From the NCBI GenBank assembly GCA_000004985.1, contig GG738919.1: DNA of 64,000 nucleotides; one strand, written 5' to 3'. Made by a program: the position numbers and the translations under genes. Below are positions 4,374 through 53,289 of this stretch, piece after piece. Within the stretch, counting starts at the first letter, position 1; each line of letters begins with the position of its first letter. The DNA comes from Naegleria gruberi. Its lineage: Eukaryota. Under the pieces are notes generated by a model. It had not been told where the DNA came from. It worked only from the letters and a program-made list of their open reading frames with translations, and searched no databases.

Positions 4374-6104
4374 TTACTTAAGGTCAACTCCTTTATTGGA
4401 GTTTCTACCAACCTTGAACCTGTAAATAACATGGGCAATAATGAAACCGATAGAAATAATAAATAATGCAAAATTGAGAACTCCATAGAAAAGGAATGGA
4501 CCACTTGGTTTCCAATCATCGAATAAATATCCACCAACCTTTGTGGCCACTAAAATACCAGCAGCACCAAAGAGAGTAAAGATACCACTTACGCTACCTC
4601 TGACCTTACTTGGTGATTCAGCAGTGACAAGGATTTGAGAACAAATAATGACACCAATTTCACCAATACCAATCAATGCAATTGGTAAATAGACAAAACC
4701 ACCAGTGACATCAGTGAGGAAAGATAACATGGTATAACCAACACCTGAAATTGCAGAGACAATTGCCATAACAATCAATCTCGACATTTTTCTAACAAAA
4801 TCAGTCTTGAAATCATCCTCTTGTTCAGGTTGTTGTTCAACATCTTGATTCTTCTTTCTTCTAAATCTCAAGTCAGCAAAAATACCAACAAATGGAGCAG
4901 CAATGAGAGCAAAAGTTTGACAAATACCAGAAATAGTACCACCTCTAGCAGTAGCATCTGCCTTGGATGAATCATGAATGTCAATCATTTGTTGAGAGAC
5001 CCACAATGTAATAAAGGTAGTAATGAGAATAGAGTCACCTCTAGCAACGAAACCAGAAATGTAGGCAAGAATGAGAGATGGTCTCTTTGCTGGAGCAACA
5101 AATAAACCTTCCCAAATGATATTTTTGAATCTGATGAAGGATTTCTTAATGTTGAATCTTTCTTCATCATCCTCTTCTTCACAATCACTACTTTCAGCCA
5201 TTTCTCTTCTGGTTGCTTCACGTTCTTGTTTAGAGTCACAAATTGGGAAAATTCTTCCCTTGAAGAAGATCATTAAGGCACACATGGCAATAATACAGAA
5301 GAAGGCCATAATCATAAAGGCAATCATACCTGCTTGACCTGTTGAAATGGTTGGATCAGCACTTTGAATCCATAATGGAATCTTTAAACAAGCCAAAGCA
5401 GAGACAACAGCACCAAGACCAGATGCCAATCCCAACAAACCAGATGCTTTACCTCTATCCTTATTCTTGACATAGTCACCAACAATGGCAGTTAACATAC
5501 TACTTGTACTGGCAGCACCAATAGCAAAAATAATTCTGTAGATTATCAATTGCCAAATAGTTTCAGCAAATGTATAGAGGAACAATCCAATTCCCATAAA
5601 TAAGAAACCAATCATGTACACAAACTTTCTACCTCTCAAAATATCAGTCAGCACGCCCCAAATCAAGCCAAATGCCAAAATGCACAATTCATTGTAAAAC
5701 GACAAGTCACCAGCCAATTTACCTTGATCTTTTCTATTTACAGTACCTCTCAGATAAGCTTCGAAAACATAACTTGACATGGCATTAATAAATACGAACA
5801 TACTAAGCAAAATGACAACCAAAATATAGAAACAAGTAATATGAACCCACGTAATACCAGGTTTCAGTTCAATAAAACCCAAATATCTATCAGTTCGAAT
5901 ACAGCCACACAATAGTTTTGGTTTCTTTTTGGAAGGAGGACCGGTTGGAGAGGAAGGTTCGCTACCTGGTGATTGATAGGCAATATTATTCTGCACTTCT
6001 TGATTGTCATCTGTTTGATTGACAGAGGAAAGGCCAGCAAGAGGAGGAATTATAATTGCAGGTGATGAAGTTGAATCAGCAGTACTTTGATACGAATTTT
6101 CCAT
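4374..6104 (-). CDS. Major facilitator superfamily transporter, 12 predicted TM.
   Basis: MFS loop signature G-x-L-x-D-I-L-R-G-R-K, alternating hydrophobic helices. ATG verified at 6104..6102. Confidence 0.85.
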   Translation of the reverse strand: MENSYQSTADSTSSPAIIIPPLAGLSSVNQTDDNQEVQNNIAYQSPGSEPSSPTGPPSKKKPKLLCGCIRTDRYLGFIELKPGITWVHITCFYILVVILLSMFVFINAMSSYVFEAYLRGTVNRKDQGKLAGDLSFYNELCILAFGLIWGVLTDILRGRKFVYMIGFLFMGIGLFLYTFAETIWQLIIYRIIFAIGAASTSSMLTAIVGDYVKNKDRGKASGLLGLASGLGAVVSALACLKIPLWIQSADPTISTGQAGMIAFMIMAFFCIIAMCALMIFFKGRIFPICDSKQEREATRREMAESSDCEEEDDEERFNIKKSFIRFKNIIWEGLFVAPAKRPSLILAYISGFVARGDSILITTFITLWVSQQMIDIHDSSKADATARGGTISGICQTFALIAAPFVGIFADLRFRRKKNQDVEQQPEQEDDFKTDFVRKMSRLIVMAIVSAISGVGYTMLSFLTDVTGGFVYLPIALIGIGEIGVIICSQILVTAESPSKVRGSVSGIFTLFGAAGILVATKVGGYLFDDWKPSGPFLFYGVLNFALFIISIGFIIAHVIYRFKVGRNSNKGVDLK

Positions 6105-8321: not shown

Positions 8322-11300
8322 ATGTCTAGCCATCTATCAGATGGACACGATCACTATAATTCTGATTGCAATCAACCTTTGGAATCACATCAACAAAATC
8401 AACAACAATTAGATGATGATTCCAAACAAGACAATAATCTTCAAAAAACAACAATACCAACAACAACAACTACTGTTTTGGATCATCATTCATTATCAGA
8501 AAATCACATTGCACTATTAAATAATCATCATTCTCATCATCATCACATCATCCAAGAAGAATCATTGTATATAGATGGAGAGCAATTTGATGATGGTGAT
8601 GATTATGTGGTCAAGCAGGGTGATAGACAGTTGGTTGAGAGTGCACCTAGTAGTGTGGAGGAGATTCATGGTGGTGTTCAGGAGGAATCAATATCGTTGT
8701 TATCGAAAATGTATTGGAAAGTGAAGGATAAAATTGTGGACCTGATGTGCTATGTGATTAAAAAGAAACCACTTGGTGATGATTTTGAATTGGAGGAAAA
8801 GGAGCAAGAATTAAAAGAAGAAACTCAACAGGAAGTGGAACCAGTTGAAAAATCCAATTTTGCCTCAGAAGACGAAACTGAACGAAAGTTTGAAAAAATT
8901 TATATTAACAATCGAGAAGAAAATAGAAAATGCAGAAAACCCTTTCCCAAAAACTCTGTCACAACCACCAAATATTCAATACTGACCTTTATTCCAAAAA
9001 ATCTATTCGAACAATTCAGAAAGGCAATCAATGTTTATTTACTATTAACTGTTATTGCAGTTTTAATTCCAGATCTATCACCCATGTTTCCTCCAGCTGC
9101 TGTATTACCCATTACAATCATTGTCCTTGTCCAGATGGCCAAAGATGGATTCGAGGATTTTCAAAGATATCGTCAGGATCGAAAGGCAAACAATGAGAAA
9201 TGTCGAGTGATTAGAGATGGAATCTTACAGGAAATTCAAGTGAAAAATATAGAGATTGGTGATGTGGTTTCGATAAAGAAAGATGAGGTTTTCCCAGCTG
9301 ATTTGTTGTGTATACATTCGTCGAGAGAGGATGAGTTGTGTTATATTGAAACTGCAAATTTGGATGGAGAAACTAATCTAAAGAGTAGAAGACCTATTAA
9401 GGGATCTTCTAAAGTATTTCATCATGATGTTGCGGAGAATAATATTGGAGATTTTGCACAATTGAAAGGAAAGGTTCAAGTCGAGATGGCAAATAACAAT
9501 TTGGATGTGTTTGAGGGCATGCTGAAAATGCAAACTCAAGTGATGGGATATGGTGAATTAATCTCAATTAATGAACCACTCACAATGGAAAATCTATTGC
9601 TTAGAGGATGCACTCTGAGAAATACTCAACACATATTTGGAATTGCAATCTATCTCGGCAAGCACACAAAGATTTTTATGAATACGAAGGAGAATAAGGT
9701 GAAGAGAAATGAATTGTGGGTAACTCTGAATAAGATTTTGGTATTCTTGGTTTTATTTCAACAAGTGTTGTGTGCAATAGTTGCTGGACTGCAGGGAAAC
9801 TTTCATGACACATTCGAAAGCGGTGCATTCTATTTGGCTCCTCTTGATGATTCACCAGCTTCGTTTGTTTCTGTCATGTCAACTTGGGTCACTACGTTTA
9901 TATTGTTAAATTACATTGTCAATGAGACAATTATTATTGGATTTGAAGCTGTCAAGACATTCCAATCGTGGGATATTCAATCAGATGCTGAAATGAGATT
10001 TGGTGATATTAAAACTCAGGTCAGAACAGCAAATTTGAATCAAGCACTTTCATCACTTGATTTTATCTTCTCTGACAAGACTGGAACACTAACACAGAAT
10101 GAAATGAAGTATTCAGATTCATGGACAGATGGCATGTATTATTCAGAGAAAAGCAATCCTGGCTCAATGAAAGAGAAACTAGTGCAATATCATCAATTTG
10201 GTAAGATTGACATTGAAAATCAACCTCATCATCATCAACAAACATCTGTACATGGAGCAGAACATCATGCTAGCTGCATTAGAGAGTTTTTAACATGTCT
10301 CACCTTGAATAACAGTGTCATGCCAGAGAAGGATTTACAAAACCCTGAAAGAATTAATTACAATGGACCTTCCTCAGATGAAATTGCACTTTTGGAGGCT
10401 GCTACCAATAATGGATTCAAATTAATTCAGAGAACCAACGAAGGATTAGTAATTGATGAAATGGGAGAAACTAGATTTTATGAAATTATTGCAACCTTTC
10501 CATTTACATCTGATAGAAAAAGAATGACAGTTCTTGTGAAAACTCAAGAAGGAAGATATATTGCCTATGTGAAAGGTGCAGATAACGTCATGCTGAAGAG
10601 ATGTAGAGCTAGAAAGGAATATGTTCATGAATTGAAATCTGCTCTTCTCAATTTTTCAGTTCAGGGCTTGAGAACATTGGTAATTGGTAGGAGGGAGCTC
10701 TCAATGAGTGAATTTGAAACTTGGTTCGATGGTTATAATAAGGCCTCCATGTCAAGTAAGAATAGAGGAAAGATGATTGCTCAGAGTGCAAGTGATCTGG
10801 AAATTGATTTGGAGCTGGTTGGTTGTACAGCCATTGAAGATAAATTACAAGATGATGTGGCCAAGTCAATTGATTATCTTTCCAGAGCTGGTTTGAAGAT
10901 TTGGGTCTTGACAGGTGATAAGACAGAGACAGCAATTAATATTGCCTACTCAACCAATGTATTGGTGAAAGACAAGACCATTGAAATCAGAATCAGAGAT
11001 GCCAACACACATCAACAAGCCAAAAAGAAACTGAAGGAAGCACTAGAATTCTTACAAAACAATTCGAATAAGGGATTTGAATTTGGTCTCATTATCGACT
11101 CCAAATCTCTAGAGTTTATTCTCGACAAGTATGAGAAACGTTTCATTGAACTAGCTCGATATGTCCACTGTGCTGTCTGCTGTCGTTTAAAACCACTCCA
11201 AAAGTCCAGCATTGTAAAACTAATTGAAAGTAAGCTTCACAAGAAGGCCCTCTCCATTGGTGATGGTGTCAATGATGTGGCAATGATCCAAGCAGCATCC

Positions 11301-12185
11301 ATCGGTGTTGGAATTCAAGGAAAGGAAGGATCTCAAGCTTCTCGTTCCTCTGACTTTTCAATTCCTCGTTTTAAAAACCTGGTAAGATTATTGGCCGTTC
11401 ATGGAAGAAATTGCAGTGTGAGAAATGCCGACTTTTTACATTTGAGTTTCTACAAGAATTTTATATTGCTCCTTCCTCAATTTTTCAATATTTTCTATTG
11501 TGGATATTCTGGAACTTTAATATTCGATTCTTGGGAATTAATTGTCTATATTGGAATTTACTTCTTTTTTCAACCGATTGCATTTGGATCGTGTGAAAAG
11601 GATTTACCTGAGGAGGTGATTTTAGAGCATCCAGAACTCTATGATTCACTCAAAAAATCTGGAAATTTATTCAATCTCAGAACATTAATCATGTGGGGAA
11701 TTGCTGCCATCTATCATGCACTTGTCATTTTCTTTGGAATTATTCTGAGTGTGGATGGAGATTTTATGGAGAATGGACCTACTGACCTATATCATTTTGG
11801 TAAAATTATCATGACATGTATGGTTTGTGTGGTCACTTTGATATACATTTTGGAGATTAAAACATTGACAGTTCCAGTTTTAATCTTAATGCCACTTGGT
11901 TTTTTATTTTACTTTGCATTCAATGCTTGTTATTCTCCAATTGCAGATGAATTGGGAGATCCTGAGAGTTTATACATTTATTATGAAACTTTTGTGAGTG
12001 TACAAGCTACCTTGACTACGATTCTAGTAGTTGTAGTTGCAATTTTACCGAATATCATTTGGAAAGCTGCCAAGATTACCTTTTTCCCATCAGAGTCTCA
12101 ACGACTTTTATTGGAATATCTTGAAAAGAAGGAACACCAAACTCAAGAGGAAGCTAATAAGGGAAAGCAACCAAACTCAAAGTAG
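8322..12185 (+). CDS. P4-type phospholipid-translocating ATPase (flippase), 1287 aa, single exon.
   Basis: P-type motifs DKTGTLT, TGDKTETAINI, GDGVNDVAMIQAASIGVGI and a 10-TM topology. ATG at 8322. Confidence 0.9.
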   Translation: MSSHLSDGHDHYNSDCNQPLESHQQNQQQLDDDSKQDNNLQKTTIPTTTTTVLDHHSLSENHIALLNNHHSHHHHIIQEESLYIDGEQFDDGDDYVVKQGDRQLVESAPSSVEEIHGGVQEESISLLSKMYWKVKDKIVDLMCYVIKKKPLGDDFELEEKEQELKEETQQEVEPVEKSNFASEDETERKFEKIYINNREENRKCRKPFPKNSVTTTKYSILTFIPKNLFEQFRKAINVYLLLTVIAVLIPDLSPMFPPAAVLPITIIVLVQMAKDGFEDFQRYRQDRKANNEKCRVIRDGILQEIQVKNIEIGDVVSIKKDEVFPADLLCIHSSREDELCYIETANLDGETNLKSRRPIKGSSKVFHHDVAENNIGDFAQLKGKVQVEMANNNLDVFEGMLKMQTQVMGYGELISINEPLTMENLLLRGCTLRNTQHIFGIAIYLGKHTKIFMNTKENKVKRNELWVTLNKILVFLVLFQQVLCAIVAGLQGNFHDTFESGAFYLAPLDDSPASFVSVMSTWVTTFILLNYIVNETIIIGFEAVKTFQSWDIQSDAEMRFGDIKTQVRTANLNQALSSLDFIFSDKTGTLTQNEMKYSDSWTDGMYYSEKSNPGSMKEKLVQYHQFGKIDIENQPHHHQQTSVHGAEHHASCIREFLTCLTLNNSVMPEKDLQNPERINYNGPSSDEIALLEAATNNGFKLIQRTNEGLVIDEMGETRFYEIIATFPFTSDRKRMTVLVKTQEGRYIAYVKGADNVMLKRCRARKEYVHELKSALLNFSVQGLRTLVIGRRELSMSEFETWFDGYNKASMSSKNRGKMIAQSASDLEIDLELVGCTAIEDKLQDDVAKSIDYLSRAGLKIWVLTGDKTETAINIAYSTNVLVKDKTIEIRIRDANTHQQAKKKLKEALEFLQNNSNKGFEFGLIIDSKSLEFILDKYEKRFIELARYVHCAVCCRLKPLQKSSIVKLIESKLHKKALSIGDGVNDVAMIQAASIGVGIQGKEGSQASRSSDFSIPRFKNLVRLLAVHGRNCSVRNADFLHLSFYKNFILLLPQFFNIFYCGYSGTLIFDSWELIVYIGIYFFFQPIAFGSCEKDLPEEVILEHPELYDSLKKSGNLFNLRTLIMWGIAAIYHALVIFFGIILSVDGDFMENGPTDLYHFGKIIMTCMVCVVTLIYILEIKTLTVPVLILMPLGFLFYFAFNACYSPIADELGDPESLYIYYETFVSVQATLTTILVVVVAILPNIIWKAAKITFFPSESQRLLLEYLEKKEHQTQEEANKGKQPNSK

Positions 12186-38258: not shown

Positions 38259-40295
38259 ATGATTGATAATTTTACAATTCTTACAAAAGGAGGATTGGTA
38301 CTTTATAGTTTTACTGGATTTGCATTGAATGGAAATCCTATCAATGAATTAATTCGATCAGTATTGTTGGAAGATCGTCTCTCCGATAAGACATTTAACT
38401 ATCAAAATGAATATTTGCTGACATGGCTTCAAGAAAATGAATTTGATCTTATTTTCGTAGTTGTTCATCAAATTGCAATTCAAATTACATTTATTGATAC
38501 TCTCTTGGAAAATATTAAAAACAAATTCACTTCAACATTTAAGAAAGTACTTCAAGATGCTAAAGGAAAAGGAAAGGGTATGTCAGTCCTCAGTGAACAC
38601 GAATTTTCCTTTGATAAGGAATTTACAAAGATTTTGAACAATCTTGAAGAAAGATCGCGAGAAGAAAAACAATTGCAAAAGGAAGGTTTGCTCATCAGAC
38701 AATATAGAAAGAAGGACGACGAAAAGAAGGATGAATCGACAAATAATGAAGAGGAAAAGAAAAAGACAACCTTTATTGAAAAGCAAATTCAAAAAGGTGA
38801 AGAAATGCTCCAAACAAGTTCACCAAAACAAATGTCCAAATATGAAAAGAAGAAGGATAAGAAAGCAGCCACACCAACCACCACCCAAATCGAAGAAAGT
38901 GATTCGGAAGAGGAGGATGATGAAGCTCAAACACCAAAATCAGCCACAGAAATGAATGAAAATGTTAAGGCCAATATTGAACAAATGAAGAAACGTTTCG
39001 GAAAATTCAAGGGAGTCAACATGGCAAAGAAGGGTTCCAAGAAGAATGTTACAGAACCATCCACTCCTGAAGATGAAAATTCCATCCCAACAGTTCAAAT
39101 GAAGGAAAAGCCAAAGAAGGTTGCCACCAACTGGGATCAATTTGATACCACCTACACTAAGAAGAAGGCCGAAAATATTGACTTTTCAAAGAAGACAAAA
39201 ACTGGTGATGAAAATGGCTCACCAGAAGATGATCTTCAACGTCACAAGGAAAAGTACATGCCAAATCCAAATCAAATGACTGATATTGATGCCGATATTT
39301 ATGATTCAAGCAGTGAAGAAGAAGAGGAAATTGATGAAAAACCAAAGAAGGGTAACATTTTCTCTACCTTCTTCTCCAATTTGACTAATGGTAGAACTCT
39401 TACAAAGGAAGATCTTGATCCTGTCATGGAAGATTTCAAACAATCACTCATGAAGAAGAACGTTGCTCAAGAAATTGCAGTTAGCATTTGTGATTCAGTC
39501 TCTGAAAATTTGGTTGGTAAAAAGTTGGGTACCTTCTCCTCCATTAAGAGTGAAGTCACTAAGGCTATGGAAGAAGCCCTCACAAGAATCTTGACTCCAA
39601 GCAGAACTATTAACATTCTCAAGGAAGCCTCAACTGTCAGAGAACAAGGCAGACCATATGTTATTGTCATGTGTGGTGTCAATGGTGTTGGTAAGAGTAC
39701 CACCTTGTCAAAGATTTGCTATTGGTTACTTCAAAAGGAATTCTCTTGTTTGATTGCTGCTTGTGATACTTTTAGATCTGGTGCTGTTGAACAACTTCAA
39801 GTCCATGCTAGATGTTTGAATGTACCAGTATTCCAAAAGGGTTATGGTAAGAATGCTGCCTCTCTTGCTAAGGAAGCTATCAACCATGCAAAGAAGAATG
39901 GTTTTGATATTGTACTTGTAGATACAGCTGGTAGAATGCAAGATAACGAACCATTGATGAAATCTCTCATTGAATTGATTCAAGTCAATACTCCAGATCT
40001 TGTCTTGTTCGTTGGTGAAGCTCTCGTTGGTAATGACGGTATTGACCAATTGCAAAAGTTCAACTCTTCACTCAAGGTTTTGGCTAGCTCTGAAAATGCT
40101 GCCACCAAGCAAACTAAGGATTTAATTGATGGTATCGTCTTGACCAAGTTTGATACTATTGATGAGAAGGTGGGAGCTGCAGTTTCAATGGTTCACAAAA
40201 CTGGTCACCCAATTGTATTTGTTGGTGTTGGTCAAACTTATACCGATTTGAGAACACTCAAGGTTGAATCAGTAGTGAAATCCCTCCTTAAATAA
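38259..40295 (+). CDS. SRPRA: Signal recognition particle receptor subunit alpha (SRX domain, charged linker, NG GTPase domain).
   Basis: VIVMCGVNGVGKSTTLSKI, DTFRSGAVEQL, DTAGRMQDN, LTKFDTIDEKVGAAVSMVHKTGHPIVFVGVGQ. Confidence 0.9.
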   Translation: MIDNFTILTKGGLVLYSFTGFALNGNPINELIRSVLLEDRLSDKTFNYQNEYLLTWLQENEFDLIFVVVHQIAIQITFIDTLLENIKNKFTSTFKKVLQDAKGKGKGMSVLSEHEFSFDKEFTKILNNLEERSREEKQLQKEGLLIRQYRKKDDEKKDESTNNEEEKKKTTFIEKQIQKGEEMLQTSSPKQMSKYEKKKDKKAATPTTTQIEESDSEEEDDEAQTPKSATEMNENVKANIEQMKKRFGKFKGVNMAKKGSKKNVTEPSTPEDENSIPTVQMKEKPKKVATNWDQFDTTYTKKKAENIDFSKKTKTGDENGSPEDDLQRHKEKYMPNPNQMTDIDADIYDSSSEEEEEIDEKPKKGNIFSTFFSNLTNGRTLTKEDLDPVMEDFKQSLMKKNVAQEIAVSICDSVSENLVGKKLGTFSSIKSEVTKAMEEALTRILTPSRTINILKEASTVREQGRPYVIVMCGVNGVGKSTTLSKICYWLLQKEFSCLIAACDTFRSGAVEQLQVHARCLNVPVFQKGYGKNAASLAKEAINHAKKNGFDIVLVDTAGRMQDNEPLMKSLIELIQVNTPDLVLFVGEALVGNDGIDQLQKFNSSLKVLASSENAATKQTKDLIDGIVLTKFDTIDEKVGAAVSMVHKTGHPIVFVGVGQTYTDLRTLKVESVVKSLLK

Positions 40296-42501: not shown

Positions 42502-43944
42502 TTATTTAATTAGAACATCTGATAAAGTTGAATTATTAATTATTAATTTTAACTTTTTAAACATTTCTTTGAGTTGTTTGGTTTCGTTTTCATCTTTTTT
42601 AAAAGCAATTAAAAAGTAGCCACCTGCATAAATAGAATTAACCAGATTAAATAAATTATCATCACAATGTAATGGTTGTGGAATTTTCTTATTGTCTCCA
42701 ACAATTTTCCATTTAGATCCACATATCATAACTTGATTACTTCTAGTTAAAAAGCTTGTAAAATAAAATCCACATGAAATATCTTTAAATTTCAAGTTAT
42801 TGGATTCAACCAATTTAAATACTGGCGATGCTTGATTGGTATTTATACCTAATTCACCATTTTCATTATATCCTGCACCATATACATTTCCTAACTCTGT
42901 TAATACCATTGTATGATGTATGCCTAGTGATACTTTAATTGCCTTTTCAGGAAAATCAACTTTGGTAAATACCATTAAATTAGAATCTGATCTACCCAAT
43001 TTACCATTGTCATTTCTTCCTGCAGTCCATACTTGTCCTTCCATATCTATTATCACTGAATGAGAATATGAAAAATCTGCATCCATTACCTTGTTAAATA
43101 TTAATTCAAATTTGTATAATAATTCATTTGGTTTACCTCTATTTAAATATTATTAATCAAACAATTATAGAAATAATAAACACATACAATTCACCACTTG
43201 AATTATTACCTGCAGCATATAAATTTCTATCTTTGGTAATAATAGCACAAGTATTAAATCTAGAAATTAATCTTTCAATTTGATTTAAAGGAATATGATC
43301 TGTATTTGCTTTCACAAATGTATTTGTAGATGATGCATTACCAACACCCAATTGTCCATGATTATTAAATCCAGATCCAAGGAGAGCTAATTCTCTATTA
43401 TTATAAATATTATCAATATTACTGTCAATACTATTATCATCAGTATCATATTCAACGAGAATCATACTATGATTCCATCCACATTGTGCTTGTAATATTT
43501 TAATGTTCTTTCTTTTAATATGTTCTATTATTGGATCAGTAATATCACGTAATTCACAACTACTACCACTATTAGTTGGTACTCCTTGTTCTCCTATTAT
43601 AATATTGGATTATTATGAATATTAAATAGTTTGTGATGATTACAAAGTTTACAAAATATTAACAATATATGAATTGATAATAACATACCAGTGCCATTAT
43701 AACCTGCAGAGAATAATCGATTTTGCAAAGTTACTTTATCTTGTAATAATAAAAACAAAAAATCACCACCACAACTAATACTAATAACTTTATACTTTGA
43801 ATACTTGCTTGGATCGATGATCAAATGTGTTGAATTGGATTCCTTTAAAATTTGATAACTGGTGCTCTCACCAACTCCGAATATGATTGGATCATCGTTT
43901 GCGTAAGAAGATTCCTTTGATGATGAAGAAGTTGATCGCTTCAT
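42502..43944 (-). CDS. RCC1-repeat protein, join(42502..43138,43188..43593,43689..43944). Introns of 49 and 95 nt.
   Basis: Three minus-strand ORFs joined by ACTG|GTATGT...TATAATAG|GA and GAATT|GTATGTG...AAATAG|A. Phases are consistent. RCC1 signatures GRNDNGKLG, GYNENGELG, GFNNHGQLGVG. Confidence 0.65.
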
Positions 43945-44154
43945 TTTTTTGGTTTTGATTACAATAAAATTGTTGTGCTATTTTTAAAATACATAAAGTT
44001 CATCTGTGTGGAATAATGAGCTTGTTTGAGGTCAATTACATGAAAGATGCTTAAAAAAATGATAAGATAAATGTGTAATGTTTGAAAAAAGCAAATGGCA
44101 CCGTGTTCGGAATTGTTTTATATAATTTTGCATCATAAGATAATAATATTAATA

Positions 44155-44415
44155 ATGGAATTAATTGGAATAATTAGAACAAGTAGCAAGGCTGTTAAAG
44201 CTGTATGAGCTCCAAAACTTGGAGGTGCTTTCACTCTTGTTAATACTAAAGGAGAAGTTGTTACAGATTCTGAATTTAGAGGAAAATTCATGGTCATGTA
44301 TTTTGGATTTTCTAATTGTCCTGATGTTTGTCTAACTTGAAATGAAAAAGATGAGCTCTTCAAAGAATTGAAAAGGAAAATCCAGAGTTGGCAGCCAAGA
44401 TTGTTGCAATTTTAA
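44155..44415 (+). pseudogene. SCO1: SCO1/SenC-like (cytochrome oxidase copper chaperone, thioredoxin fold) fragment with two in-frame TGA codons and a truncated C-terminus. Probable pseudogene.
   Basis: APKLGGAFTLVNTKGEVVTDSEFRGKFMVMYFGFSNCPDVC matches the SCO1 core (GGPFxLxxxxGxxxTDxxxxGKxxxxYFGFxxCPDxC). TGA at 44206-08 and 44338-40, in frame. Only weak DYLV remnants downstream. Confidence 0.5.
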
Positions 44416-44464
44416 GTAATGAATATAATATCTAGCTTTTCTAGTGGGAGAATTCTTGCTGTGA

Positions 44465-45749
44465 CTATCTGGTAACGTTTTTTGTGACATTGAACCACTG
44501 CTCAAAGAATTGTTGTACAATTCGATTTTGGAAAGAGAGTCTGTAGGGGTCATCCTTATACAACCCTTTCCTTATTATGTTCGATTTGTAAATTACTTCT
44601 GATAATTCTGTTTGAAAATCGAGTGGAAGCATAAGATGTTCAAAAGGTGTTTCAATTAATTTCTTAGCCCATTCCAATACAATCGACCTAATTGTTGAAT
44701 CTAAATTATCTATTTTTTTCAATATCAGATCATTGATTGAACCTTGCAATTGTTCAATATCAACAGAACCATCACTCTTCACAGTTTCTAATACATAACC
44801 TAAATAAACAGGCTTCATTCCAGTTACTAGAAGTATCCTGTCAATTTCATAAGTATCTGTAATATTTAGAGCTTGAAGATATTTGACACCAAAATCGCGA
44901 GAAGGTTCGAATAACTCTACAGACCTAAGCCTATCACCAGCTGATTGCAACTCTTTGGCATAACCGTCAGAAGATATGACCAACAAACCAATTCCAGTTG
45001 GGAAATTCTCTTACCATGCTAATGAACCTATTGGCTATTGGCGCGTTTCGATTAGCATTGTCAATTATGAATAAAGGACAATGCATAGATCTGAGGTTTT
45101 TAGAATGTAAGTCAATATATTTCTTGACAGTAAATTCAATATCCGACCAAGATGTTTCCTTCTCAAGCATATTCATTTGAGCTGCTATTTCTGCAATGGT
45201 TGTGGTTTCACTCAAGCTGATCAACATATAGGGATGAGGATTTAGTAATCTTATAGAATCCTCTAACATGGTGGTTTTTCCAATTCCACTCTCACCATGA
45301 AAGCCTTTCATATGTAGTTTACAATTATGCATCAACGTTAGGGTTTTTGAAAATATGTTAGAGTACTCATCATTTGGAATTAGGTTTGGATGTTCTGCAA
45401 TCTCACTCGAATACAATGTAGAATTCAGGGATACGATCCTATCTTGAATTGGATGAACCAATTCAATCTTTGTTACGCCTCCTGAATACAAGTAGCTGTA
45501 CAAACAGGCTGTGATAGCGCAGAATATGGCAACAGCATTAAGGATATTACTACAAGAAAAATCACAACAAGCAAGGTAGCTGGTTTTCCTTGCCTCCTTT
45601 TTTTTCTCTTCGTCCTTTTCAATACGGTAGTTGGAAGAAGACCCTTTGATGATAACGGAAGAATCAACGGATGTTGTTTGTTGGTCCTCAACATCCCTGC
45701 TGTTGTAAGGGAATACAGTGCTTTTAGATTGCAAGCTGTGTGTGGCCAT
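44465..45749 (-). CDS. Membrane-anchored P-loop NTPase of unknown function, join(44465..44950,45015..45749) with a 64-nt intron.
   Basis: Walker A GESGIGKTT. N-terminal TM ILNAVAIFCAITACLYSYLY. ..ISM|GTAAGA donor at 45014 and AAAGAG| acceptor link ORF 44967..45749 to ORF 44465..44986 in frame. Confidence 0.55.
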
Positions 45750-51238: not shown

Positions 51239-51478
51239 TTAATCTTTCTTCTTCATATAGGAATTATTAAACAAGGTCAAATGACTCTGATAAATACGAA
51301 ATCCAAGTTTATCTACAAACTTGTTCAAAACCTTCTTGTAATCATCGTGGGATTTAATGCAAAAATGGAAAGAATTAGTTACAAGTGAGAGAAAGTAGAA
51401 ACAATTCAAATCAGTTGTGTGATCCAAAGTGGAGAGTCTTTCCAATACTTGTTTCAACATTTCGTCCAAGAATTTCAT
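51239..51478 (-). CDS. 79-aa ORF directly abutting the upstream gene in the -1 frame. Either a separate small gene or a frameshifted C-terminal extension.
   Basis: MKFLDEMLKQVLERLSTLDHTTDLNCFYFLSLV.. is protein-like. There is no GT in the junction, so an intron is excluded. Confidence 0.3.
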   Translation of the reverse strand: MKFLDEMLKQVLERLSTLDHTTDLNCFYFLSLVTNSFHFCIKSHDDYKKVLNKFVDKLGFRIYQSHLTLFNNSYMKKKD

Positions 51479-53289
51479 ATCTTCTTTTGGGTAAATTCCA
51501 TCTCGATTTGAATTTGTAAAATTCGTTCAGTTGTAATGGAAGATTCCAAATCTAGACTGTTTCGAATAATGAGCAATACAATCTTACTAACCACTGAATA
51601 GATTTGAGTATTGAACCCATAAGTTAAACTGGAAATTGTCTTGAAAAAGAAAAATGGAAAGTAATGACTGGCAGTTTCGTTCCAATTAGTTGAGAAGGAA
51701 GAAACTTTTTCCTCAAATTTGAAATCTTGCAAAAAGCTCACAACCAATTCATTCTCCATTTCTGAATCGATTAATGAAAATAAAAAGGAAATTTGTTCAA
51801 TTTCAATTTGATAATAATTTTCAGGTTGACCAAACAATTTTTCTCCTCCACGACCACTTCCAGATTCCAATCTTTCAAAATTATCATTCGGCTCCACATA
51901 GACACTATTAAATTCAATCTTCTTATCACAATTCCAAAAGTGATTTTCATATTGATTGTCAGCTCTTACAGAGCTAGAGCAGAGTAAATGATGGAGAGCG
52001 AATTGACAAGCAAACATGAGAAATTGTTTGTCTTTTTGGAGGTTGACTGGTTGAGATTTCAACTTTTTAAAACCGAGATTGAATAAAATTTCACAATATT
52101 TTCTCCACTTGTTGAGTTTGATGTCGATTTGGATTTCTTCTGGAAGAGTTGACTTGGATTTTGATTCGTCTGGCTTATTTTCTTGTTGGAATTTTGAGTT
52201 GGATTGATAATTGTAAGATAATTCAGCAATGTTTTCAAATGGAACAGTCTTATTGTCATGAGTTACAATAGTTGTTGGATTAGTTTCACTTTCAGAAATA
52301 TTGGAAACTATTGAACTGCCACAAGTACAACTACTCGAACAACTAATGCAACTTCCTGACCTTCCAGAAATAGTTTCACTATTGGCTAACCCACCACTAT
52401 TTACAGAACTTTCGTCTGAAATCTCATAATTGTTAGTTCTAAATCTAACAATACTTTGCAACATTTCAAAGCACTGTTGTGCATCATATTCATCTTCCAT
52501 TAGAAACAACTCAACTAAAATGGCCTCAATCTTATCAACGGCTACACCCAATTCATCCAACTTTCCAATATCACATGGTAAGAATCTCAAGAATTCCCTC
52601 TTAAATCCATTCTTAAATTCAATGAATTCTCGATCATGGAGAGATCTCACAATTTCTTCTTTCTCTTCTTCTTTTTTCTCTTCAATCTTGCCACCATTTG
52701 CTTCATAATCTTTAATTTCTCGATTCAATTTCATGCCTAATTGCCTCTCCTCTTCACATCTCTTTGCATCTTTTCCATGTTCTTCAATTTCTTTTCTTCT
52801 CTTTTTTAAGTTTTCTTCAAAACTCAGTGTTAGTGGTATGTTTGTGGTTGTGGATTTTGATTTTGAGACAAACATTGAAACATCTAAATTAAATAAATCT
52901 TCATCATCATCTTCTGTTGGGATTGGATTCAGAGTGGAAGAGGTAGGAATAGGAATCATTGGAATGAGTGCGCCATTTGATTGTAGTGCAAATGTTGATA
53001 AAGATGGATCAGAATTGGAGCTGTCAATTTGTTCATTTGCTTGTTCTTCATCTGTTGTGTTAAGAGGTACAGAAGAAATTGGAGCAGATGAAGATATAGA
53101 AGGGACATCAGCAGATGAGGATTGTTCTGTTGATGATGAACAAGATTGGTAAATTAATTGATCAATCTTTGCATCATGTTCGGAGGTGGAAATTTCCTTG
53201 ATTTTCTTGACTGAATTTTCCTCTTCACTTGCCAAAGTGCTTTCCTTTCTCTTCTTGCCAGTATCTTCGATCGAATGAATAACAGTCAT
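51475..53289 (-). CDS. Hypothetical 604-aa protein with a charged coiled-coil segment and a Ser/Cys-rich region.
   Basis: ATG at 53289, long ORF with no recognisable domain. Followed immediately by ORF 51239..51478, whose start codon overlaps the stop (ATATGA). Confidence 0.5.
   Translation of the reverse strand: MTVIHSIEDTGKKRKESTLASEEENSVKKIKEISTSEHDAKIDQLIYQSCSSSTEQSSSADVPSISSSAPISSVPLNTTDEEQANEQIDSSNSDPSLSTFALQSNGALIPMIPIPTSSTLNPIPTEDDDEDLFNLDVSMFVSKSKSTTTNIPLTLSFEENLKKRRKEIEEHGKDAKRCEEERQLGMKLNREIKDYEANGGKIEEKKEEEKEEIVRSLHDREFIEFKNGFKREFLRFLPCDIGKLDELGVAVDKIEAILVELFLMEDEYDAQQCFEMLQSIVRFRTNNYEISDESSVNSGGLANSETISGRSGSCISCSSSCTCGSSIVSNISESETNPTTIVTHDNKTVPFENIAELSYNYQSNSKFQQENKPDESKSKSTLPEEIQIDIKLNKWRKYCEILFNLGFKKLKSQPVNLQKDKQFLMFACQFALHHLLCSSSVRADNQYENHFWNCDKKIEFNSVYVEPNDNFERLESGSGRGGEKLFGQPENYYQIEIEQISFLFSLIDSEMENELVVSFLQDFKFEEKVSSFSTNWNETASHYFPFFFFKTISSLTYGFNTQIYSVVSKIVLLIIRNSLDLESSITTERILQIQIEMEFTQKKI

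What the first reader, a model, noticed from the sequence alone, without database searches (positions are those of the whole stretch)
44155..44500. SCO1/SenC-like relic with two in-frame TGA codons between two minus-strand genes
A plus-strand ORF in the 520-bp gap between the RCC1 gene start and the P-loop NTPase stop encodes the SCO1 core, including the CPDVC copper-binding motif, with about 45 percent identity to yeast and human SCO1. It contains TGA at 44206 and 44338 within otherwise well-aligned sequence. It lacks the C-terminal His-containing half; only a DYLV remnant overlaps the neighbouring gene's 3' end. I read it as a decaying duplicate. The non-random survival of the metal-binding core is notable. 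The ORF track shows only antisense ORFs here.
Basis: partly seen in the sequence, partly recalled or inferred. Interest (0 to 1): 0.5.

Follow-up and report, generated by a model that had tools for sequence, protein, structure and literature searches.

The report
Dead SCO1 gene fragment in Naegleria
This is a broken, roughly 310-base leftover copy of the amoeba Naegleria gruberi's own SCO1 copper-chaperone gene; the working gene sits on another scaffold, so the fragment is an ordinary pseudogene rather than a recoded or hidden gene.

Summary
The window is a Naegleria gruberi NEG-M nuclear scaffold. The plus strand at 44103-44411 carries SCO1/SenC-homologous sequence (Pfam PF02630, E=7e-14), including CPDVC (44317-44331) and TGA codons at 44206 and 44338.

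It is a pseudogene fragment:
- It is collinear with residues 399-503 of N. gruberi's intact SCO1, XP_002673616.1. That gene lies on a different 348-kb scaffold and was detected by mass spectrometry in mitochondria.
- 80 of 89 aligned residues are identical to the parent, more than to any other relative.
- It carries a TAA (Tyr410), a TGA (Gly434), a Pro-to-Leu change after CxxxC, a scrambled 34-nt stretch (net -2), a +1 insertion that creates the second TGA, and a 5-nt deletion.
- It has no N-terminus and no His-bearing C-terminal half.

TGA recoding is excluded. Neither TGA aligns with Cys, no SECIS element was found, and TGA acts as a stop elsewhere in the window. The "DYLV remnant" and the "non-random survival of the core" are not supported statistically.

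One new point: an intron conserved in three relatives is missing from the fragment, which hints at an RNA-derived copy.

Verdict: ordinary, low interest, useful only for annotation.

The parts
44103..44141 (+). Pseudogene segment A. Remnant of the SCO1 transmembrane anchor, VFGIVLYNFAS*D, matching residues 399-411 of XP_002673616.1. TAA at 44136-44138 replaces Tyr410.
   Evidence: tblastn gives 12/13 identical. DNA aligns to L003 and L005 exon 1.
44142..44175 (+). Scrambled AT-rich linker (AATAATATTAATAATGGAATTAATTGGAATAATT) corresponding to residues 412-423. Net -2 nt relative to spliced parent-type cDNA, which shifts the frame. It spans the position of a phase-1 intron conserved in relatives; no intron-sized insert is present here.
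   Evidence: The intron is 40 nt in L003, 174 nt in L005 and 143 nt in Willaertia L004.
44176..44337 (+). Pseudogene segment B, the SCO1 core: RTSSKAVKAV*APKLGGAFTLVNTKGEVVTDSEFRGKFMVMYFGFSNCPDVCLT. TGA at 44206-44208 replaces Gly434. CPDVC lies at 44317-44331. CTA at 44332-44334 is Leu in place of the conserved Pro476.
   Evidence: Pfam E=7e-14. tblastn to P0279. Identity counts.
44338..44338 (+). One-base insertion (T) relative to orthologous cDNAs. It shifts the frame and creates the second 'in-frame' TGA at 44338-44340.
   Evidence: DNA alignment to L003 and L004 cDNAs.
44339..44353 (+). Pseudogene segment C: EMKKM (residues 478-482), in the second frame.
44354..44354 (+). Site of a 5-nt deletion. 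A single A remains of the Thr483-Lys484 codons, giving a second frameshift.
   Evidence: DNA alignment.
44355..44411 (+). Pseudogene segment D: ALQRIEKENPELAAKIVAI (residues 485-503), in the third frame. Detectable homology ends here.
   Evidence: tblastn. Shuffle test shows no significant similarity beyond 44411.
44463..44474 (+). It overlaps the stop of minus-strand ORF 44465-44986. It is not demonstrably part of the pseudogene.
   Evidence: It is the only DYLV in the six-frame translation of the window. There is no flanking similarity, and the match is not significant after allowing for about 100 possible 4-mers.
42502..43944 (-). Flanking gene: RCC1-repeat protein XP_002670117.1 (NAEGRDRAFT_74940). 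Three exons, with introns 43594-43688 and 43139-43187. The start codon is at 43944.
   Evidence: My spliced 432-aa model matches the database protein exactly. Pfam RCC1 hits.
44465..45749 (-). Flanking gene: P-loop/AAA-like protein. The annotated protein XP_002670118.1 covers 44967-45749. A 173-aa ORF at 44465-44986 continues it in another frame, through either a frameshift or an unannotated 64-nt intron.

Best explanation
The feature is a non-functional fragment of a gene duplicate. About 315 nt of the coding sequence of N. gruberi's own mitochondrial SCO1 (XP_002673616.1, residues 399-503) was copied into the intergenic region between an RCC1-repeat gene and a P-loop gene on another scaffold. 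The copied part runs from the transmembrane anchor through the CxxxC copper site to the start of the third beta-strand region. The copy arose within the N. gruberi lineage, after its split from the closest sequenced relatives.

The copy has no start codon, no targeting sequence, no promoter of its own and no distal-His half. It was therefore probably dead on arrival, and it has since accumulated neutral damage: two nonsense codons, loss of the conserved CxxxCP proline, and at least three frameshifting indels. It makes no SCO1 protein. Copper delivery to cytochrome c oxidase is done by the intact parent gene.

**Shown:** homology, collinearity, the lesions, the existence and expression of the intact parent, and the different genomic context.

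**Inferred:** dead on arrival, neutrality, and the mode of copying. The copy may be RNA/cDNA-derived, because the intron conserved in relatives is absent.
For: - **Organism.** The window is N. gruberi: six ORFs match N. gruberi proteins exactly, and three more do so.
- **Homology.** Pfam SCO1-SenC scores E=7e-14. A three-frame composite raises the score to 60.5 bits over profile positions 1-63.
- **Parent gene.** P0279 was retrieved and lies on a 348,446-bp contig, against 216,243 bp for the window's contig. tblastn of its SCO1 part hits only 44103-44141, 44176-44403 and 44325-44414, in three frames.
- **Relationship.** The fragment is identical to N. gruberi SCO1 at 80/89 residues, against 75 (L005), 71 (L003) and 72 (Willaertia). 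It shares two derived states with N. gruberi. Polarised changes are 7 fragment-specific against 1 parent-specific (binomial p=0.035).
- **Lesions.** DNA alignment to orthologous spliced cDNAs shows the +1 and -5 indels and the collapse of homology after 44411. Flanks are not above shuffled controls.
- **Genomic context.** Intact orthologues always sit downstream of an ankyrin-repeat gene. No ankyrin or other parent-locus fragment is in the window.
- **Expression of the parent.** The parent protein was detected in mitochondrial fractions (PMC8134430, supplementary file 4).
- **Genetic code.** Six confirmed window genes (4,301 codons) have no in-frame TGA, and one ends in TGA.
Against: - The parent's genomic DNA could not be obtained (metagenome scans were empty). 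Synonymous divergence, the age of the copy and the presence of the intron in the N. gruberi parent are therefore untested.
- No transcript data were available, so transcription of the fragment cannot be excluded. It could, for example, be transcribed antisense within the 3' UTR of the P-loop gene.
- The relative-rate asymmetry rests on only 8 polarised changes.
Confidence: 0.9

Rival explanations
1. Recoded gene. The two TGA codons are read through or decoded as selenocysteine, giving a functional short SCO1-like thiol/selenol protein. From my own knowledge, not checked here, Naegleria has selenocysteine machinery.
For: The two TGAs lie in otherwise well-conserved sequence.
Against: - The first TGA aligns with an invariant Gly434, not with Cys.
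- The second TGA exists only because of a +1 insertion, and the downstream homology continues in the other two frames.
- A TAA at 44136 and a net -2 shift lie upstream, and there is no start codon linked to the transmembrane segment.
- No SECIS or other Rfam family was found within 43500-45500, even at E<=10.
- TGA terminates XP_002670119 and is never in-frame in 4,301 confirmed codons.
- The distal His half needed for copper binding is absent.
Confidence: 0.01
2. A real but unannotated second SCO1 gene, whose apparent stops and frameshifts are introns or sequencing/assembly errors.
For: Gene models in this assembly are imperfect. XP_002673616.1 looks like a fusion of two genes, and XP_002670118.1 is truncated at a frame change.
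Against: - There are at least six independent lesions in 309 nt, while neighbouring genes translate exactly to database proteins.
- The stops lie inside conserved blocks with no GT..AG pair that could remove them without deleting invariant residues such as APKLGG or the second Cys.
- The two frameshifts are 16 nt apart, too close to be separated by introns.
- About 100 C-terminal residues and the whole N-terminus are undetectable.
- The fragment differs from the parent at about 10% of residues, so it is not a mis-assembled read of the parent.
Confidence: 0.03
3. The fragment is not merely junk. Because it lies antisense to the likely 3' UTR of the P-loop gene, the antisense SCO1 sequence is transcribed and feeds an RNAi-type pathway, or acts as an antisense regulator of the parent SCO1 mRNA. 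This would be a pseudogene-derived regulatory RNA.
For: - Geometry only. The fragment begins 54 nt downstream of the stop of the minus-strand ORF 44465-44986, on the opposite strand.
The fragment matches the parent at 47 of 52 residues over 44182-44337, and its DNA is 86% identical to the L005 orthologue over those 156 nt.
Against: No expression or small-RNA data are available. The fragment is decaying at sites that would matter equally for RNA pairing. There is no conservation evidence, because no second N. gruberi-like genome holding this locus could be found.
Confidence: 0.04
4. Chance similarity, or a low-complexity artefact in AT-rich intergenic DNA.
For: None beyond the AT-rich context. 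GC is 31% in the fragment.
Against: Pfam E=7e-14. phmmer finds 2,986 SCO hits at E<=1e-3 in 1.8 billion proteins. The fragment is 90% identical to the species' own SCO1. The core DNA alignment scores 179, against 18.8 +/- 2.1 for shuffles.
Confidence: 0

Closest known systems
N. gruberi SCO1 (XP_002673616.1 / NAEGR D2V-series 'predicted protein', 605-aa model), the parent gene
   Same: The fragment is collinear with residues 399-503 and identical at 80/89 aligned residues. It shares lineage-specific residues (Val at EVVTD, Asn at EKEN). It has the same transmembrane anchor sequence and the same CPDVC motif.
   Different: The fragment has two stop codons, a Pro476-to-Leu change, and -2, +1 and -5 frame changes. 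It lacks the N-terminal 398 residues of the model and the C-terminal 102 residues, which include DYLVDHS with the copper-ligand His. It lies on a different scaffold without the ankyrin-gene neighbour.
Processed (retro-)pseudogenes and cDNA-fragment insertions
   Same: The fragment lies at an unlinked locus, contains only coding sequence, and lacks an intron-sized insert at a position where three relatives have a phase-1 intron. It was dead on arrival, without a promoter.
   Different: There is no poly(A) tract and no target-site duplication. The fragment is truncated at the 3' end rather than only at the 5' end. About 6 extra nt (AATTAG) sit at the exon-exon junction. The intron in the N. gruberi parent itself is not verified.
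Duplicated (non-processed) pseudogene fragments from segmental or ectopic DNA repair
   Same: It is a short internal gene fragment inserted between unrelated genes, decaying by point mutations and small indels.
   Different: A DNA-level copy should carry the intron, which is 40-174 nt in relatives. Here it would have to have been deleted almost exactly afterwards.
Human SCO1 P174L (PDB 2hrf/2hrn)
   Same: The best PDB match is this pathogenic mutant, because the fragment also has Leu at the proline following CxxxC (CPDVCL).
   Different: This is a coincidence of a neutral substitution in a dead copy and has no functional implication.

Membership tests
SCO1/SenC family (Pfam PF02630), functional member | Significant sequence match to the family profile | tested here: met
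   E=7.2e-14, 52.3 bits against a cutoff of 22.8. Human and yeast SCO1 structures match at E about 1e-10.
SCO1/SenC family (Pfam PF02630), functional member | CxxxC copper/redox motif | tested here: met
   CPDVC at 44317-44331. The following conserved Pro is Leu.
SCO1/SenC family (Pfam PF02630), functional member | Complete thioredoxin-like domain including the distal copper-ligand His (DHS motif) | tested here: not met
   Only profile positions 1-63 of 134 are covered. There is no significant match to parent residues 504-605 anywhere in the window.
SCO1/SenC family (Pfam PF02630), functional member | Uninterrupted reading frame with start codon, targeting sequence and transmembrane anchor | tested here: not met
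   TAA at 44136, TGA at 44206, and frame changes at 44142-44175, 44338 and 44354. No homology 5' of 44103.
Duplicated pseudogene of a gene in the same genome | An intact, expressed parent exists elsewhere in the same genome and is the closest relative | tested here: met
   P0279 lies on a different contig. The fragment matches it at 80/89 residues, more than any other relative. Mass-spectrometry detection is reported in PMC8134430, supplementary file 4.
Duplicated pseudogene of a gene in the same genome | Disabling mutations and relaxed constraint on the copy | tested here: met
   Two nonsense codons and at least 3 indel events. Polarised residue changes are 7 fragment-specific against 1 parent-specific, p=0.035.
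Processed (RNA-derived) pseudogene | Absence of the parent gene's introns | tested here: inconclusive
   The phase-1 intron at codon 423 is present in L003 (40 nt), L005/L006 (174 nt) and Willaertia (143 nt). The fragment has 49 nt where spliced cDNA has 51. The N. gruberi parent's DNA was not obtainable.
Processed (RNA-derived) pseudogene | 3' poly(A) tract and flanking target-site duplications | tested here: not met
   There is no A-run after 44411. Only short repeats at chance level flank the fragment.
Selenoprotein gene / programmed TGA recoding | TGA aligned with Cys/Sec of homologues, a SECIS element in the 3' region, and an otherwise open frame | tested here: not met
   The TGAs align with Gly434 and with a frameshift site. 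No SECIS was found at E<=10. Additional TAA and indels are present.

The most novel reading that the evidence does not exclude
The fragment may be an RNA-derived (cDNA) copy of part of the SCO1 mRNA, captured at a chromosomal break in an organism where retrocopies have hardly been described. Its antisense transcription within the neighbouring P-loop gene's 3' UTR could yield small or antisense RNAs that modulate the parent SCO1. That would link a pseudogene to the control of cytochrome-oxidase copper loading in Naegleria.
Probability: 0.04. Interest if true: 0.5.

Novelty: new member of a known kind. Interest (0 to 1): 0.12.

Why it matters
The main value is annotation hygiene.
- The fragment should be labelled as an SCO1 pseudogene fragment, so that it is not counted as a second SCO gene or mistaken for a selenoprotein or recoding candidate in N. 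gruberi.
- Finding the parent showed that the real N. gruberi SCO1 is hidden inside a probably chimeric ankyrin-SCO1 gene model (XP_002673616.1). That matters to anyone cataloguing copper chaperones or mitochondrial assembly factors in Naegleria.
- If the copy is RNA-derived, as the missing conserved intron hints, it would be a small data point on RNA-mediated duplication in Heterolobosea.

Tried and rejected
- **Word-indexed protein search** with the frame-corrected 80-aa composite found no candidate. This was uninformative: the index is sparse, since P0171 shares long identical runs with the query.
- **Exact look-ups of N. gruberi proteins** in the contig index failed. The N. gruberi assembly is not in that index, so the parent's DNA and introns could not be read.
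- **Metagenome scans** found nothing, either with the parent SCO1 protein or with a degenerate 54-nt pattern for VFGIVxYNFAxYDVRQKK.
- **Profile search** with three heterolobosean SCOs did not list the N. gruberi protein among the best 120. It was found instead through a proteomics supplement.
- **L001 and L002**, the loci of the SCO paralogue types P0013 and P0022, are not syntenic and not the closest type, so I dropped them.
- **Splicing out the stops.** No GT..AG pair removes them without deleting invariant residues.
- **TGA=Trp/Cys alternative code** was rejected on the window's own genes.
- **Extending homology** 5' of 44103 and 3' of 44411 with shuffle controls gave nothing significant.
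- **Target-site duplications, poly(A) and inverted repeats.** Only chance-level short repeats were found.
- **Rfam scan** for SECIS or other RNAs found nothing near threshold.
- **Pfam scan** could not decide whether the P-loop gene's frame change is a frameshift or a 64-nt intron.

Full report
**Source of the window.** Six long ORFs translate exactly to annotated Naegleria gruberi NEG-M proteins on a 216,243-bp contig, for example XP_002670065 at 8322-12185 and XP_002670075 at 38259-40295. Three more do so. The sequence is therefore N. gruberi nuclear DNA, 34% GC. The genetic code is standard: 4,301 codons of confirmed genes contain no in-frame TGA, and one gene (51475-53289) ends in TGA.

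**Check of the observation.** TGA lies at 44206-44208 and 44338-44340, and CPDVC at 44317-44331. Pfam SCO1-SenC (PF02630) matches at E=7.2e-14 over profile positions 1-56 of 134. Human SCO1 and yeast Sco1 structures match at E about 1e-10. Counting identities in the printed alignments gives 22/47 and 23/55, so 'about 45%' is right. A full phmmer scan of 1.84 billion representatives found 2,986 SCO-type hits. The similarity is not chance.

**Closest relatives.**
- The best matches are heterolobosean SCO1 proteins. These include an Acrasis kona Sco1, Willaertia magna ABK040_006384 (P0170) and an environmental Naegleria-like protein, P0171.
- No N. gruberi protein appeared in the top 120 of the profile search.
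- A proteomics supplement (Horváthová et al. 2021, PMC8134430, supplementary file 4) lists XP_002673616.1, a 68.9-kDa 'predicted protein' whose best hit is Sco1p, detected in N. gruberi mitochondrial fractions.
- Searching with its printed N-terminal 399 residues retrieved the full 605-aa protein, P0279. It lies on a different, 348,446-bp contig.
- Its C-terminal 225 residues are a complete SCO1 with transmembrane anchor, CPDVCP and DYLVDHS. Its N-terminal part is an ankyrin-repeat protein.
- In Willaertia (L004), L003 and L005/L006 the ankyrin gene and SCO1 are separate, adjacent, same-strand genes. The N. gruberi model is therefore probably a fusion artefact. The conserved position of the intact gene is downstream of the ankyrin gene, which is not the context seen in this window.

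**Anatomy of the fragment.** tblastn of the parent's SCO1 part against the window gives only three significant pieces, in three different frames:

| Window | Parent residues | Translation |
|---|---|---|
| 44103-44141 | 399-411 | VFGIVLYNFAS*D |
| 44176-44337 | 424-477 | core with CPDVC |
| 44355-44411 | 485-503 | ALQRIEKENPELAAKIVAI |

EMKKM (residues 478-482) lies at 44339-44353 between the last two pieces. DNA alignment to spliced orthologous cDNAs localises the lesions:
- TAA for Tyr410 at 44136-44138.
- A scrambled AT-rich 34 nt at 44142-44175, net -2.
- TGA for Gly434 at 44206-44208.
- CTA (Leu) for the conserved Pro476.
- An extra T at 44338, which is what creates the second TGA.
- A 5-nt deletion after 44353.

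The indels sum to 309 nt against 315 nt of cDNA. Beyond 44411 and before 44103, similarity to the orthologous cDNAs is no better than for shuffled sequence. The core scores 179 against 18.8 +/- 2.1 for shuffles. No other piece of the parent locus (ankyrin gene, downstream gene) is in the window.

**Relationship and direction of decay.**
- Over 89 aligned residues the fragment is identical to N. gruberi SCO1 at 80. It matches L005 at 75, Willaertia at 72 and L003 at 71.
- It shares two derived residues with N. gruberi only.
- Of the changes that can be polarised with three outgroups, 7 are on the fragment and 1 on the parent (binomial p=0.035).
- The copy therefore arose in the N. gruberi lineage and has evolved without the constraint that holds the parent.

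**Mode of copying.** L003, L005/L006 and Willaertia all have a phase-1 intron in the codon before Gln424, of 40, 174 and 143 nt.
- The fragment has 49 nt between Asp411 and Lys428, where spliced cDNA has 51. No intron-sized insert is present. About 6 extra nt (AATTAG) sit exactly at the junction, offset by small deletions on either side. One of these looks like slippage loss of one unit of a CAAGCAAG repeat.
- This fits an RNA/cDNA-derived copy, possibly from a transcript spliced at a cryptic acceptor.
- Against that reading, there is no poly(A) and no target-site duplication. The 3' half rather than the 5' half is missing. I could not read the N. gruberi parent's DNA.
- I rate RNA-mediated origin at about even odds.

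**Alternatives.**
- *Selenocysteine or readthrough.* Excluded. The TGAs align with Gly and with a frameshift, not with Cys. There is also a TAA and there are indels. No SECIS was found at E<=10. The His half is missing.
- *Hidden introns.* They cannot rescue the frame. The two downstream frameshifts are 16 nt apart and the stops lie inside invariant blocks.
- *Assembly error.* Unlikely. It would need at least six lesions in 309 nt beside genes that translate perfectly. The fragment also differs from the parent at about 10% of residues, so it is not a misplaced read of the parent.

**The two side claims.**
- *DYLV.* The tetrapeptide at 44463-44474 is the only DYLV in the six-frame translation of the window. 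However, it is four residues chosen after the fact from about 100 possible 4-mers of the missing half. Comparable chance 4-mer hits (HSIF, GSQD, FMYF) occur nearby, and there is no flanking similarity.
- *Non-random survival of the core.* This is not supported. The core carries a nonsense codon and the Pro-to-Leu change. With about three indel events in 309 nt, one indel-free 162-nt stretch is expected fairly often (about 0.1 on my rough estimate).

**Context.**
- The RCC1-repeat gene (42502-43944, minus strand, three exons) is XP_002670117.1. My spliced 432-aa model matches it exactly.
- The annotated P-loop protein XP_002670118.1 is only the 260-aa ORF 44967-45749. The cause is either a 1-nt frameshift or an unannotated 64-nt GTAAGA..GAG intron, and Pfam could not decide between them.
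- Nothing is annotated over the fragment.

**Verdict.** This is an ordinary, lineage-specific pseudogene fragment of SCO1. Interest is low, and the practical outcome is three annotation notes:
1. An SCO1 pseudogene fragment at 44103-44411.
2. A probably chimeric parent gene model, XP_002673616.1.
3. A truncated or frameshifted P-loop gene model, XP_002670118.1.

Noticed in passing
not in window: N. gruberi XP_002673616.1 (P0279); compare L004:7976-11175, L003:968-3355, L005:4689-8171: The only annotated N. gruberi SCO1 is a 605-aa model that fuses an ankyrin-repeat protein to SCO1. In Willaertia and two Naegleria-like contigs these are two separate, adjacent, same-strand genes. The N. gruberi model is therefore probably chimeric, which hides SCO1 from simple searches.
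   Followed up: partly
window 44465-45749 (-), junction near 44967-45012: The annotated P-loop protein XP_002670118.1 ends at a TGA at 44967. A 173-aa ORF with no Pfam match continues in another frame and overlaps it by 20 nt. Removing one T from ATGGTAAGAG would give ...RFISMEENFPTGIGLLVISSDGY.... Alternatively, a 64-nt GTAAGA...GAG intron joins the two frames. The cause may be a real frameshift, a sequencing error or a missed intron.
   Followed up: partly
window 4374-6104 (-): The 576-aa protein encoded here is listed under two N. gruberi accessions on two contigs (EFC35832.1 and EFC37367.1). This suggests a duplicated or allelic scaffold in the assembly.
   Followed up: no
window 44142-44160: The stretch AATAATATTAATAAT replaces GTTCGTCAAAAGAAACG, which is identical in L003 and L005. 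It is about 50% identical, against about 90% for the rest of the fragment. This suggests a local (AAT)n-type slippage or replacement event at the former exon-exon junction region.
   Followed up: partly
L001:8201-8788, L002:10001-10897, and proteins P0013, P0022, P0167, P0168, P0173, P0174, P0030: Heterolobosean-like sequences carry at least three distinct SCO types. These are the Naegleria/Willaertia type found here, a 'GFHERFVGLTGT' type and a 'DYNIDHS' type. Acrasis kona has two. I did not determine whether N. gruberi has the other types.
   Followed up: no
PDB 2hrf/2hrn: The top solved-structure match is the human SCO1 P174L disease mutant, because the fragment also has Leu at the proline after CxxxC. 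This is a coincidence of neutral decay, but it could mislead automated annotation.
   Followed up: yes
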